Shown here piece after piece: positions 8,491 through 13,344 of a DNA stretch of 64,000 nt. The notes under the pieces were generated by a model. That model was not told where the DNA came from. It searched no databases and worked only from the letters and a program-made list of their open reading frames with translations. The stretch lies in the NCBI GenBank assembly GCA_000165425.1, contig CT868060.1:62001-126000 (forward strand). Direction: 5' to 3'. Position 1 is the stretch's first letter; every line of letters starts with the position of its first letter. Made by a program: the position numbers and the translations under genes. This stretch comes from Paramecium tetraurelia (Eukaryota).

Positions 8491-9236
8491 AATTAATTTT
8501 ATAATATATATAATTATTTATAAATTCGGCAATTACTATATCATTAAAAGAATACCTATTCTATTATATACATTCAGATGATGAACCTAATTGGATAAGA
8601 ACCTTTAAATAATAGATGTTTCCATAGAATACTTATTATATAGATCAGTAGTCCACTTATCACATATCTGATAAATAGTCTATTTAAAAAGTGACTAGAA
8701 CATTGTTTTTAACACCCTTAATTTGATTAATCTACAAATCCTAATATATTAATACTAATGATCTTTCTTTAATAAAATTGACCAATATATCTTATATTAA
8801 AATATCTAGAGCAATAAATATATGATCTTAATCTCATGCTTAAAACGATATTTATACTTTTAAGTTTATAGATACATGAATTTAATCATATGAGACAGTA
8901 GTTTATGTAAAATGAATCTAAAATATTAATCCAAATAGGATACTAGGTATACAATATTAAGTGAAGCTTCTGTTTTTCGTATTCACCAATGATTAATACT
9001 GCTTACCTTACTATAATAATATTAAAGAAGCAATATGAATAAGAGAGTCTACACAAGATATATCTAAAAATAGTACATTTATCTTATTTGTATTTGAGAT
9101 TAATATTGCATTAAATAGTTAAGATTTAACAGCAGGTAAAACAGATTGCAGAGATTTCAAAAATCATAATGAACTATTTTTTGCAAGTTTTTAAGATCTA
9201 TTTTTAAATATATATATATTAATTTAACAATAATAC

Positions 9237-9764
9237 TCATTTTTTTTTTTATTCTGCTATTTTTTTTTCTTCCATATATTTCTAAACAAATTCCTTAATC
9301 ATTAATTCGTATTTAGGTAAGTCTTGTTCAAAAATTTTAGCTAATTCAGCATTTGTGGGGGACTTTGGATTAGGACGATAAAGGAAATCTTCCAAGGCTT
9401 TCAGTATTTCTACACAGGTTTTGGCTGGCGAATATCCTATTTTATCATTGAGAATGTCAATGCAAGTTTTGCCTGATGAATAAATGTTCATATGTAGAAA
9501 TCTGTTTTTGGAGTATAACTTCCAAGTGTAGGTTGGTGATACAGTAGGATAGTTTTAAGGGAATTCTAAAGTACCTGCGAATTCACCTCCTTACCATATG
9601 GTATTTTCTCTTCCGTAGATTACCACATCCCATTTGGTGTAGTTTGCTGAGTTGTTTTCATATTAGATGGCAACTGTAATGTTATCAATGACACCTTCAT
9701 CTATGGCGTTTTATACTTACTCGAATTCTTTTTCCAATCTCTTAATCATTTAATCGTTTATCAT
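9237..9764 (-). CDS. Ubiquitin/SUMO-conjugating enzyme E2 (divergent, Ubc9-like)
   Basis: KRLEKEF...KWDVVIYGRENTIWQGGEFAGTLEFPQNYPTVSP...FLHMNIYSSGKTCIDIL...PNPKSPTN matches the UBC fold with the catalytic Cys present. The gene is intronless. Confidence 0.88.
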
Positions 9765-11190
9765 TATTATTATATTAATAGAAAATCAATTAAATTTTGA
9801 TCATTTATAAGTAATGGAATTTCACGCGGAAATCTTACATCTGTGTTGATTTATTCTATTTCCCTCAAAGCTGTTTCAAGTGATTCGATGGACAGCTAAT
9901 GAACGATAGAATTATAATAATAAATTAATTTGAATTGGTTGGCTTCGTAGTAGGAAACATGAAATTGATTATGAAACTTCTTGTTTACTTATTGTAACTA
10001 TTTGATTATTTTGGTATGATGTTCATCATATTGCGGTATCAGAATGATGAGAGTATTTTCATTGTATTAAATGTAGGGTTGCGAGGGAGATTTGTTTTAC
10101 TCCTTTTTGATGAATGAGTATTTTTAGTGAAAATGTTTGGAGTCCATGGAGAGGAAGTCTTTATAGAAAGTGAATATGGTAGTGAGATTATGCAAATCTC
10201 CATTGTAGATGGCATTAGCATTTGAATCCAAGTTGAAGATTGTCAGTTTGATTTCTTGATCGAATTTCTCTATTCCCAACATCTACAATCGATCTTCATT
10301 CAAATTTCCATCAATCCAAGCGAATCTTAGAGAGGGTAATTAGAGTGCGATCTTTTGTATTTTGAGTAAGTAATTCTGATTATCCTAAATGGAATCCATC
10401 ACGATAAGTGCATGTCCTAGATAGTATTTTGAATTGTCAAACTTCAATTCATTGATTAATGGCACAATTGGTTGAGCCAACAAATCGTCAACAAATTAAT
10501 AATGATTTGGAAATCTGGATATTAAAATATGGGAATAAGTGTTAAACTTTGAATAGATGTTTTTAATTTCTGATTTTTACATTAAGAATCCAAATTTGAT
10601 TCTATAATTATAGAGCTTCTTACATTGTTGAGTAAAGTGTTTGATTTCATCATGGTATTCCACTTGATCATAGAATAATCCGATGATATAAATGTCATAT
10701 AATGATTGCTAATTATGCTAATTATTGATGGCAGACTCGATCTCTTGGAGAGAGTGAAATTGGGTGAATTGCAATCCATTCAAGTAGTAGTGGATGAAGG
10801 AGAGGAGGGTTTCATAGTGAAGCAGGTCGTTATAATGATAGATGACTCCAGATTTGGTTTCCAGAAAGATGGCTGGAAATCGTTTGATTTGGTATTGTTC
10901 TATGAAGGAGACATTATCTAAAAGTGGTAGAGAGATATACCTTCTAATTCAATTCTCAAGAAGTTTACTTGTTTGGGGAGGTCTTGCAGTAATTATTTGA
11001 AAATGACTTCATGAATGCAACAGGCTTTGCATGCTTTGTGAGTGGCGAGAAGGAGGGTCATCTAATACTTGGGGTTGTTGATGGGTTTGGAAACTGAAAA
11101 ATATGGTAATCCAGGGGAACAGTTGCTAATCCTGAGATGTTGATTTAATTCTTTAGTAAATATCAATGTGAAACAGATGAACAAAATCAT
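9761..11190 (-). CDS. Secreted thioredoxin-fold / PDI-like protein
   Basis: Signal peptide MILFICFTLIFT, CxxC motif HKACKACC, cis-Pro loop QYQIKRFPAIFL, and a later b'-like segment LRFAWIDG. One 23-nt intron near 10919-10941; the frame stays open to TGA at 9763-9761. Confidence 0.7.
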
Positions 11191-11819
11191 TATTTATTTT
11201 AATTGATTCTTTTCCTTTGAATGTTTTGAGTTCTCTCGGTCAGTTGTTCGAAGTAAGGACTGTTGTGTTGGTTGTTGTATTTGAATTTCTCAGAGTAGGG
11301 TTTAACCTGAATGGGAGCAAGACGTTTGTTGGATTTGTAACGATCGTATCGTTCCAACAAACCATCATGAGAGAGATCTCTCTCCATGTGATTGACCCAA
11401 CTGAAATCCAGGTTGGGTTTAGATACACTCTGCAGGAGAGGAGGGTATGAGATTATTTACTCTTAGAGTTCTGCAATTTTCTTCTTCAACTCTTCAACTT
11501 ATTATTTTAGTTATACTTCAGCAATTTGAAAAGTCTCATTCAATAGGGATTGTCTTTACACTCTCTCATTCAATTAAGCAATCTAATTATCCTTCTGCTT
11601 GATCTGCTCAGTTAGATTCTGATTCAATTTCTACAACTGCACAATCTCTTCCCTCAACTAAGAGATGATCTCAGAATCTAAATTGATTTAAACGGACTCA
11701 TCCTGCATTTGATTGGATTCCGTCAATCTGCTCACCTATATTTGTTTCTCTTCCACTCCTTCCTATTGTTAAATGATCGATTGATATAAAAATTGAGATT
11801 CAATATCTGATTCTTACAT
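11187..11819 (-). CDS. Hypothetical coiled-coil protein
   Basis: Continuous table-6 ORF MQESDIESQFLYQSIIQQQEG...ISQLREEIVQLQKLNQNLTEQIKQKDNQIAQLNER...QRKRINQNKQ*. Confidence 0.75.
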
Positions 11820-11912
11820 AATTATTTATAAACAAATTTTGTATTTGCCTAAGCAAAATACATTTGTATTTCCTCAACAACAACAACAAATTTATACATT
11901 AAATTAATTAAT

Positions 11913-12619
11913 TCATGGTTGTTCCACACTCTTGTTGCTCTAGATCTCTTCCGAAGCATTCTGCAATGTCGTATAATCCCCCTTCATGGCCATCATATAG
12001 GCAGAAGCTCCAGCATGCATACTTAATTTCTTTATCAATTTCCTCTTCTCCTCAGTCGATTGAGGTTTGCCATCGGTGGACTTGAATGAACTGGATGAGA
12101 TAGGCTAAACGAATTTGTCAATGACTGCCATCGCCTTTTCAGTCTGACTAGTAGATTTTGGGATGATAACTATTTATATCCATCATATATTTATATACCT
12201 GACTGAGTCACTTTATCACTCCTTACAAATTCTTGCTGCTTCTTTGATAATTGATATTGCATCTCGTCATTGCATGCTTACAAATTATTAACCTTGTTTT
12301 CAAGTGCAGCAACTGCTTCTTTCAGTTCCAAAATTATAGTCTCTTTTAATTGCAATTCATCTTAGTATTTTTGGATCAAATCAGTTTCATCAGGCATTGT
12401 TGGAAGATTGCAATTGGCTGCTGATGACACTGAGACCTTGGATTCTGACAATTTGTTATTTGGAGTCTCTGCTTGATGTAATTAGATTATCAAGAACTCT
12501 CTCTTCCTTTTGTAGAAATTGCATCGCTTCTCAAGAAAGCGATTCTTACACAGCAATTTTTCAATCAAGTCTTATTGGTCGACCTCACATTAGACCTCAG
12601 GTATCGGGTTCAAACTCAT
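11913..12619 (-). CDS. Hypothetical coiled-coil protein
   Basis: MSLNPIPEVQCEVDQQDLIEKLLCKNRFLEKRC...IQKYQDELQLKETIILELKEAVAALENKV..., with one 29-nt intron near 12171-12199 and TGA at 11915-11913. Confidence 0.72.
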
Positions 12620-12776
12620 ATACTTTATAAATTTTATTTTGTATTTAATCAATCTCGATCCCTCTAATTTAACCTACCCCCCCTTATTAATTAAAAAGTA
12701 GAATAATTATATTAGAAACTTTATAATAGCAATATATTTATTATTTGAACATAATTATACTATTAATGTAAATCTA

Positions 12777-13344
12777 TCAATAGATACTCTGGCTTTTCAC
12801 CTTGTTAGTCACTTAATCTATCTTTTAATCAATATGCTTATGGTATTTCAAATAAACAGGTTGAACAACCTATAACAATATGAGAACTATCTTACAGTTT
12901 TGTACACCTTCTCTGCTCCATTGAATGATGGATGGAAGAGAAAGACAAACAACGCCAATCTAATCACGTGGTAGAATGGTATGAATTCCAAAACAAATCC
13001 TATGCTCGAATCTGCCAAGGTGAGGAGGGAGAACAATATCCAATACGATAGCCATTGTCTGTCATCTTCTTTGTCTATCATGTTAGTTAATACTGTGTAC
13101 TGTCTGATTCTATTGCTTTAATGCTTCTATAAGCAGGATATATCATGGATACGAAAGTGGCTAGAAAACGTGCTGCAATTCCTAGTACGATGCTGGCCAC
13201 AGAAACAACTGCACAAATAAACACAACGTGAGCTGGACGAACTCCGATTTTTTTGCATGGTCCCTTTAGGATCTCAATCTCATCCATATTATCAAGACCA
13301 CACTTTGTAACTAACGGGTTAAGTTTTTCGAATAAAATGTTCAT
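12777..13344 (-). CDS. TB2/DP1/HVA22 (REEP/Yop1) family ER-shaping protein
   Basis: VSMIYPAYRSIKAIES...DDRQWLSYWILFSLL...LEFIPFYHVIRLALFVFLFHPSFNGAEKVYKTVVQP, with two 26-nt introns. Confidence 0.92.

What the first reader, a model, noticed from the sequence alone, without database searches (positions are those of the whole stretch)
9237..11819. Three tandem genes chained by ATGA stop/start overlaps (operon-like, zero intergenic DNA)
Seen in sequence: the coiled-coil gene ends ...AAT AAA TAA TGA with TGA at 11189-11187, overlapping the ATG (11190-11188) that starts the PDI-like signal peptide. The PDI-like frame then ends ...ATA TAA TAA TAA TGA at 9763-9761, overlapping the first ATG (9764-9762) of the E2 gene; a second in-frame ATG lies 15 nt further on. 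Established: ATGA overlaps are the hallmark of translational coupling in prokaryotes and of termination-reinitiation in some eukaryotic viruses, and they are unexpected in monocistronic nuclear genes. Inference: either promoters and poly(A) sites are buried in the neighbouring coding sequence, or the three genes share a polycistronic or reinitiating transcript. Because TAA is Gln, an AT-rich 'TAATAATAATG' start context reads as Gln-Gln-stop in the -1 frame, which may generate such overlaps naturally.
Basis: partly seen in the sequence, partly recalled or inferred. Interest (0 to 1): 0.7.

Follow-up and report, generated by a model that had tools for sequence, protein, structure and literature searches.

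The report
Overlapping start-stop genes in Paramecium
Three unrelated Paramecium genes touch end to start with no spacer DNA, and the last has about twenty times more RNA than the one before it, so they are likely separately transcribed genes squeezed together rather than a bacterial-style operon.

Summary
Both ATGA junctions exist. Homologue names place the window in Paramecium tetraurelia. Junction 1 is a true overlap of coding sequences. The thioredoxin/PDI-like N-terminus from that ATG aligns with distant homologues, and the next Met is Ile in P. pentaurelia. Junction 2 is probably true too, but a second ATG 15 nt on is not excluded. This is not a three-gene operon. E2 RNA depth is 16-32 times that of the middle gene, and no raw read covers 9764-9823. 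An RNA-run contig starts 16 nt above the E2 ATG, inside the upstream coding sequence. Whether the first two genes share an RNA is unresolved. In a 1.68 Mb genome sample, apparent in-frame ATGA is at chance level (20 of 169 against 25 of 203 controls). Three other true ATGA overlaps were found. With TGA as the only stop, ATGA is by far the commonest place for a run-on frame to end. Verdict: real overlaps, likely a neutral product of genome compaction, which gene annotation gets wrong.

The parts
11187..11819 (-). Coiled-coil protein gene, 210 aa, no intron, ends NQNKQ*
   Evidence: ORF; 8 of 12 full-length aurelia rows end NQNK[QK] and the other 4 end two residues earlier; RNA depth 4-5x
11187..11190 (-). 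Junction 1, ATGA: stop of the coiled-coil gene and true start of the thioredoxin-like gene
   Evidence: homology from Met1; Met44 is Ile in P0010; start context at the 67th percentile of predicted starts, Met44 at the 0th
10941..11190 (-). Thioredoxin/PDI-like gene, exon 1: hydrophobic signal-peptide-like start (codons 1-12) and CKAC motif at 11031-11020
   Evidence: hydropathy 2.5-3.2 over the first windows; alignments
10918..10940 (-). 23-nt GT..AG intron
   Evidence: only single-intron solution; 23 letters left out in the X3 contig
9761..10917 (-). Thioredoxin/PDI-like gene, exon 2, ends LIQQQ*
   Evidence: orthologues 83-84% identical; Pfam Thioredoxin and Thioredoxin_6 on orthologues; raw RNA depth 1.3-2.2x; no read or contig covers 9781-9823
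9765..9803 (-). Very AT-rich last codons of the middle gene; likely the E2 transcription start region and 5' UTR
   Evidence: 10% GC, 1.2th percentile of 734 predicted CDS ends; X3 E2 contig ends at 9780
9761..9764 (-). Junction 2, ATGA: stop of the thioredoxin-like gene and first ATG of E2
   Evidence: MINDQ kept in P0012 and MITDQVV in P0008; context at the 95th percentile against the 8th for the second ATG
9237..9764 (-). Ubiquitin-conjugating enzyme (E2) gene, 175 aa (170 aa from the second ATG at 9749)
   Evidence: Pfam UQ_con E 5e-28; RNA depth 29-49x
11235..11260 (-). Rejected pseudo-intron that gene finders use to fuse the first two genes
   Evidence: chosen by my no-overlap model and, by its protein, by the P. 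pentaurelia model P0010; score at the 1.2th percentile of introns; not spliced in the X3 contig

Best explanation
The three reading frames overlap by four bases at each junction, the E2 gene has its own far more abundant RNA, and all three genes are likely transcribed as separate single-gene mRNAs whose ends would lie inside the neighbours' coding sequence. Shown: the overlaps, the true start at junction 1, and the 16-32-fold RNA step at junction 2. Inferred: each downstream gene starts transcription about 10-25 nt above its ATG, in the AT-only last codons of the upstream gene (Gln TAA, Lys, Asn, Ile, Leu, Phe). Also inferred: each upstream gene is polyadenylated about 40-50 nt into the next gene, and translation is ordinary cap-dependent initiation with no coupling. 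Origin (inferred): in the ciliate code only TGA stops. When a spacer shrinks or a stop is lost, the upstream frame runs through the G-poor start region of the next gene. The first TGA it meets is most often the one inside ATG-A.
For: Mean plus-mate depth, E2 against middle gene: 48.7/1.5, 34.2/2.2 and 28.7/1.3 in X19-X21 (my means of bins). Bin 9704-9763 has 29.5/20.2/19.9 and bin 9764-9823 has 0/0/0. In X3, E2 lies on its own contig (depth 352, ending at 9780), apart from the contig with the other two genes (depth 63). 9780 is -16 from the first ATG, inside the published -26 to -11 midspread of start sites. Published 5' UTR median is 19 nt and 3' UTR median 44 nt, and genes 'sometimes overlap'. 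Two paralogues of the coiled-coil gene end in ATGA-TTTT with no intact thioredoxin gene behind them, and the E2 paralogue has none before it. The P. sonneborni orthologue ends IQYNNNDQ*, which implies an 11-nt rather than a 4-nt overlap (inferred from protein only). Run-on frames end at ATGA 249 times against at most 27 at any other single offset listed; that is 13% of 1911 frames under code 6 and 3.9% under the standard code. The three proteins share no evident pathway. Other true ATGA pairs join unrelated genes, such as dynein heavy chain to a mitochondrial ribosomal protein.
Against: No start site or poly(A) site was seen directly for the first two genes. One X3 contig runs unbroken across junction 1. 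Coiled-coil and thioredoxin depths differ only 2-4-fold. The depth dip at 11144-11203 (1.48/0.37/0.32) lies in a 17% GC bin, and depth tracks GC (rho 0.60), so it does not show a transcript boundary. The zero at 9764-9823 is also in a 13% GC bin. No RNA evidence covers the last 60 nt of the middle gene, so its mRNA is not shown to reach its stop. Consecutive accessions and shared contig lengths indicate the genes stay neighbours in 4 other aurelia species, which also fits a functional link. The three raw runs come from one study, and only 33-42% of each was read.
Confidence: 0.8

Rival explanations
1. The coiled-coil and thioredoxin-like genes share one bicistronic mRNA, and the second protein is made by termination-reinitiation at junction 1; only E2 is independent.
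For: One unbroken X3 contig across junction 1 and depths within 2-4-fold. The ATGA geometry is kept in P. pentaurelia, where the first 43 residues are identical (43 of 43, against 70/77, 112/130 and 133/145 further on).
Against: Overlapping UTRs would also join the contig. Met1 has an ordinary start context. UGGGA (TURBS core, recalled) is absent in the 110 nt upstream. Coiled-coil paralogues persist without the partner. A 1.4 kb region after a stop should invite nonsense-mediated decay (recalled knowledge, untested).
Confidence: 0.1
2. Junction 2 is only apparent: E2 is translated from the second ATG (9749), which leaves an 11-nt spacer. This is compatible with the best explanation on transcription.
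For: No raw read reaches 9764; fragment ends pile at 9755 and 9747. P0004 and P0005 are annotated from the second ATG, and the paralogue starts MIDNRLEK. Apparent in-frame ATGA is at chance level.
Against: The X3 contig reaches 9780. P0008 keeps the first Met and has Val at the second. Start context is at the 95th percentile against the 8th (the score mostly measures AT content). For the neighbouring gene the read-end pile also lies inside the ORF (12615 against ATG 12619).
Confidence: 0.25
3. The first two ORFs are one gene, fused by splicing of 11260-11235 into a coiled-coil, membrane-spanning, thioredoxin protein.
For: The P. pentaurelia model P0010 (629 aa) and my no-overlap model both make this fusion.
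Against: The intron scores at the 1.2th percentile and is not spliced in the X3 contig. The 'intron' encodes SPYF[ED]Q, kept in all 12 unfused coiled-coil rows. Distant thioredoxin homologues begin with their own hydrophobic N-terminus.
Confidence: 0.03
4. A three-gene operon with translational coupling, as in prokaryotes.
For: Two consecutive ATGA overlaps; neighbourhood kept across aurelia species.
Against: The 16-32-fold RNA step and the separate E2 contig; unrelated functions; the exact overlap is apparently not kept in P. sonneborni.
Confidence: 0.02

Closest known systems
Overlapping transcription units in Paramecium tetraurelia (Arnaiz 2017, PMC5485702, passages seen; Jimenez-Marin 2026, bioRxiv 10.64898/2026.09.19.752804, first sixth and passages seen; PMC12716044, passages seen)
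   Same: Very short UTRs, genes that sometimes overlap, intergenic DNA 'sometimes simply absent', and promoter elements proposed to overlap the upstream neighbour.
   Different: The passages I saw speak of overlapping UTRs or genes in general. Here the coding sequences themselves overlap by ATGA, twice in a row.
Overlapping transcription in compact microsporidian genomes (Peyretaillade 2009 [author name recalled], PMC2803860, passages seen)
   Same: Control signals displaced into adjacent genes. Most annotated CDS overlaps (120 of 129) vanished on correcting start codons, and a few kept signals inside adjacent CDSs.
   Different: Other lineage and standard code. Here annotation errs the other way: it drops a true overlapping start.
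Prokaryotic translational coupling at ATGA/TGATG (Huber 2019, PMC6728339, abstract and outline seen)
   Same: The four-base stop/start geometry.
   Different: It needs a shared transcript, which fails at junction 2 and is unproven at junction 1.
Polycistronic nuclear genes of green algae (Gallaher 2021, PMC7896298, passages seen) and viral TURBS reinitiation (PMC10275272, passages seen)
   Same: Closely spaced same-strand ORFs; AUGA overlaps in the viral cases.
   Different: A single promoter, a single poly(A) tail and co-expression are not met for E2. No TURBS-like core was seen.

Membership tests
Prokaryote-type coupled operon | Stop and start overlap as ATGA | tested here: met
   true start at junction 1
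Prokaryote-type coupled operon | All three ORFs on one transcript at similar level | tested here: not met
   E2 16-32 times the middle gene; separate contigs
Prokaryote-type coupled operon | Downstream translation depends on upstream translation | not testable with these tools
   needs reporters or ribosome profiling
Eukaryotic bicistronic locus (green-algal type), junction 1 only | Single promoter above the first ORF and co-expression | tested here: inconclusive
   depth ratio 2-4, one contig across, dip confounded by GC; one study, no second condition
Eukaryotic bicistronic locus (green-algal type), junction 1 only | Single poly(A) tail and full-length long reads | not testable with these tools
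   no long-read run among the 24 listed; no loose poly(A) ends at this depth
Viral TURBS termination-reinitiation | rRNA-complementary TURBS core upstream of the overlap | tested here: not met
   UGGGA (recalled motif) absent in 110 nt above both stops; complementarity to ciliate rRNA not checked
Overlapping monocistronic transcription in compact genomes | Downstream gene starts transcription inside the upstream gene (E2) | tested here: met
   depth step and contig end at 9780
Overlapping monocistronic transcription in compact genomes | Own start site for the thioredoxin-like gene; upstream poly(A) sites inside downstream genes | tested here: inconclusive
   no start or poly(A) pile at 1-8x depth
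Protein disulfide isomerase family (middle gene) | Thioredoxin-fold domains with a CxxC motif | tested here: met
   Pfam PF00085 25.5 bits over cut-off 23.5 on P0002 and PF13848 on P0009; CKAC motif; Atlas hits all PDI-like at 0.90-0.91
Protein disulfide isomerase family (middle gene) | Cleavable signal peptide | tested here: inconclusive
   hydropathy only; homologues have a similar hydrophobic start; no signal-peptide predictor run
Protein disulfide isomerase family (middle gene) | C-terminal ER-retention motif (KDEL type, recalled) | tested here: not met
   ends LIQQQ; so PDI-like, not filed as a canonical PDI
Ubiquitin-conjugating enzyme E2 | UQ_con domain over the whole profile | tested here: met
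   E 5e-28, profile 1-139 of 140

The most novel reading that the evidence does not exclude
The coiled-coil and thioredoxin-like genes form a true bicistronic nuclear mRNA translated by termination-reinitiation at ATGA. It would be one of perhaps 150-200 such overlaps in Paramecium that annotation hides, and a ciliate case of prokaryote-like translational coupling.
Probability: 0.1. Interest if true: 0.75.

Novelty: new member of a known kind. Interest (0 to 1): 0.3.

Why it matters
It shows that Paramecium can place a transcription start region and 5' UTR wholly inside the last codons of a neighbour, with no intergenic DNA. Such junctions are natural minimal test cases for what a ciliate promoter needs. 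It also exposes a likely systematic annotation error. All five public models of the middle gene seen here miss Met1 as the start or fuse it to the neighbour, so four lose the signal-peptide-like N-terminus. About 1% of tandem pairs may be affected. It is not evidence for operons in ciliates.

Tried and rejected
Rfam scan of 8500-13000: 0 matches at E up to 1, so no known RNA family explains the conserved junction. Fusion by splicing was rejected. Assembly indel was rejected (X15). The depth dip at junction 1 was rejected as proof of a boundary because depth follows GC. Overlap-permitting gene models gave no clean excess of ATGA over control junctions. At strict penalties there were 3 against 5 and 1 against 2 picks. 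At loose penalties real introns were swapped for false overlaps, for example 11 of 150 against 8 of 160 (output partly cut). A coding-score filter kept 0 of 54 A and 4 of 86 non-A candidates and dropped junction 1 itself, so it was abandoned. The relaxed list had 18 A and 13 non-A rows. Several are plainly artefacts, and I kept only two of these loci plus one from then on Pfam or ohnologue evidence, picked by eye. The run search listed no holder on record as RNA; raw RNA runs added by species label were laid instead. No per-gene expression table was reached: PMC3091696 supplements gave no hit (two PDFs unreadable), the PMC5485702 table was too large, and bioRxiv supplements are closed. These could hold start sites or expression profiles for these genes. 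Eight paper searches were run; none listed a paper on ATGA coding overlaps or polycistronic mRNA in Paramecium, but subscription papers are not covered. Earlier-findings look-ups returned nothing. No fold or complex prediction was run, because no binding is claimed.

Full report
Observation. On the minus strand, 11190-11187 and 9764-9761 both read ATGA. Under the ciliate code the upstream ORF (11819-11187, 210 aa, coiled-coil-like, only weak Pfam hits) stops at junction 1. The middle gene starts there, has one 23-nt intron (10940-10918) and stops at junction 2 (468 aa). The last ORF is an E2 enzyme (Pfam UQ_con, E 5e-28), with a second in-frame ATG at 9749. DNA contigs of run X15 show no indel. 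The intron is spliced in a contig of run X3, which also shows that X3 holds RNA.

Is the start at junction 1 real? Yes. Public models of the middle gene start at Met44 (P0001, P0002, P0009), start in another frame (P0003), or fuse it to the coiled-coil gene (P0010). In P0010 (P. pentaurelia) the first 43 residues are identical to the window's and position 44 is Ile, so Met44 cannot be the shared start. There is no Met upstream in that frame. A Tetrahymena homologue and an unnamed one carry the same N-terminal region: a hydrophobic start, then HL..SNC or LLIDNC, then the CxxC motif. BLASTP aligns from residue 1 with P0028 (E 6e-10) and from residue 6 with P0026 (E 8e-12). Met1's upstream context is at the 67th percentile of predicted starts; Met44's is at the 0th. 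The upstream stop is real too: 8 of 12 unfused coiled-coil rows end NQNK[QK] and 4 end two residues earlier. The fusion intron 11260-11235 scores at the 1.2th percentile of 1942 predicted introns and is unspliced in X3.

Junction 2 is likely real but less certain. For the first ATG: MINDQ is kept in P. pentaurelia (P0012); a distant homologue reads MITDQVVKRLE, with Val at the second Met; the context is at the 95th percentile against the 8th; and the X3 contig reaches 9780. Against it: no raw read reaches 9764, ends pile at 9755 and 9747, two orthologues are annotated from the second ATG, and the paralogue starts MIDNRLEK. The P. sonneborni thioredoxin orthologue ends IQYNNNDQ*. That reads as a frame change running 11 nt into E2. 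This is inferred from the protein alone, but it suggests the exact four-base geometry is not required.

Transcription. In three oligo-dT runs of one study (33-42% of each read), my means of the bins are 48.7, 34.2 and 28.7 for E2; 1.5, 2.2 and 1.3 for the middle gene; and 4.6, 3.9 and 5.5 for the coiled-coil gene. Bin 9704-9763 has 29.5/20.2/19.9 and bin 9764-9823 has 0/0/0. In X3, E2 is on its own contig (depth 352) ending at 9780. The other two genes lie on one contig (depth 63) from 9841 upward. So E2 has its own start, and it lies in the last codons of the middle gene, which are 10% GC (1.2th percentile of 734 CDS ends). Position -16 fits the published midspread of -26 to -11 (bioRxiv 10.64898/2026.09.19.752804). 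At junction 1 the depth dips to 1.48/0.37/0.32 between flanks of 4.2/3.5/4.3 and 4.9/7.2/1.9. That bin is 17% GC and depth tracks GC (rho 0.60, p 0.003), so the dip is not proof of a boundary. A contig across two genes does not show one transcript either, since overlapping UTRs (medians 19 and 44 nt, PMC5485702) would join them. Junction 1 is therefore open. No RNA covers 9781-9823, so the middle gene's mRNA is not shown to reach its stop; conservative substitutions in that stretch among orthologues indicate it is coding.

Paralogues. The closest duplicate region keeps the coiled-coil gene with the same junction letters, but only decayed traces follow (best tblastn E 0.082 for E2, nothing significant for the middle gene). 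An older duplicate also ends ATGA-TTTT with no thioredoxin gene behind it, and the E2 paralogue has no thioredoxin gene in front. The middle gene has a single match in the genome. In four other aurelia species, accession order and contig lengths indicate the genes are still neighbours.

How common, and why. I trained a simple gene finder on 1.684 Mb of six contigs. It reproduces 22-29 nt introns with multiples of three depleted. It gave 816 genes and 378 tandem pairs, with a median gap of 152.5 nt and 21 pairs at 20 nt or less. Of 372 pairs without N, 169 stops are preceded by A. The xTG codon is open and in frame with the next gene in 20 of 169 A cases and 25 of 203 controls (Fisher p 1.0). 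An apparent ATGA is thus a 5% chance event. Three other loci are true overlaps. At C91:397437 the zf-HIT domain needs the overlapping Met (E 1.4e-10; no hit from the next Met). At C47:304094 Dynein_C runs to profile position 308 of 309 just before the stop, and the Img2 ORF has no other Met. At C49:99136 and its duplicate C77:127397 both copies keep the overlap. These were picked by eye from noisy lists, so about 1% is a rough lower bound. On 20,233 tandem pairs (PMC8997360) that is some 150-200 pairs. Two true overlaps in a row would then be expected about once per genome (my arithmetic, assuming independence). The geometry has a neutral source. Frames entering 30 nt above 637 predicted starts end at ATGA 249 times, against at most 27 at any other single offset listed; that is 13% of frames under code 6 and 3.9% under the standard code.

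Mechanism. Most likely three monocistronic mRNAs with overlapping ends, translated by normal cap-dependent initiation (0.8). The E2 part is shown by RNA levels; the rest is inferred. Rivals: a bicistronic RNA for the first two genes with reinitiation (0.1); E2 from the second ATG (0.25, compatible with the main reading); splice fusion (0.03); a three-gene operon (0.02). No UGGGA core (recalled motif) lies within 110 nt above either stop, and Rfam finds nothing.

Comparison with what is known. Overlapping genes and vanishing intergenic DNA are stated for Paramecium (passages of PMC5485702, PMC12716044 and PMC8997361), and displaced signals are known from microsporidia (passages of PMC2803860). 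The locus has the geometry of prokaryotic coupling (abstract of PMC6728339) and of viral reinitiation (passages of PMC10275272), but fails the shared-transcript criterion for E2 (criteria in passages of PMC7896298). My eight paper searches listed nothing on ATGA coding overlaps in Paramecium; the library lacks most subscription papers, and key supplements were not readable.

Verdict. This is a new member of a known kind, with a useful lesson for annotation. Interest 0.3.

Noticed in passing
window 11190-11062 (-): The first 43 residues of the middle gene are identical between this species and P. pentaurelia, against about 89% elsewhere. It may reflect double duty as the coiled-coil gene's 3' UTR; unexplained.
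   Followed up: partly
L156:7434 (G000:C91:397437), L167:4091 (G000:C47:304094), L082:9133 (G000:C49:99136) and G000:C77:127397: Other true-looking ATGA overlaps: into a zf-HIT gene, from dynein heavy chain into Img2, and from an fn3-domain gene into a SANT/DAMP1-like gene in both duplicates.
   Followed up: partly
window 11975-11976: A>T (plus strand) in 2-8 of 34-48 reads in all three RNA runs but not in DNA run X15, next to a run of five G on the minus strand, in the highly expressed neighbour gene 12619-11913. Sequencing artefact or a minor poly(A) site.
   Followed up: no
window 10184-10963: Low opposite-strand RNA depth (up to about 1.3x) inside the thioredoxin-like gene in X20 and X19.
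   Followed up: no
window 10396: C>T in the X3 contig and in 2 of 2 X19 reads; it would change Asp to Asn in the middle gene. Probably a strain difference.
   Followed up: no
L015:2125-2700 (G000:C49): Decayed traces of the thioredoxin-like and E2 duplicates behind the retained coiled-coil duplicate.
   Followed up: partly
G000:C513:395081: A one-base difference from its duplicate creates an apparent stop and frame change inside a gene; possibly an assembly error or a young pseudogene.
   Followed up: no
window 9237-9290: E2 raw read depth falls to almost zero over the A-rich last codons, a reminder that AT-rich gene ends are under-read in these runs.
   Followed up: partly
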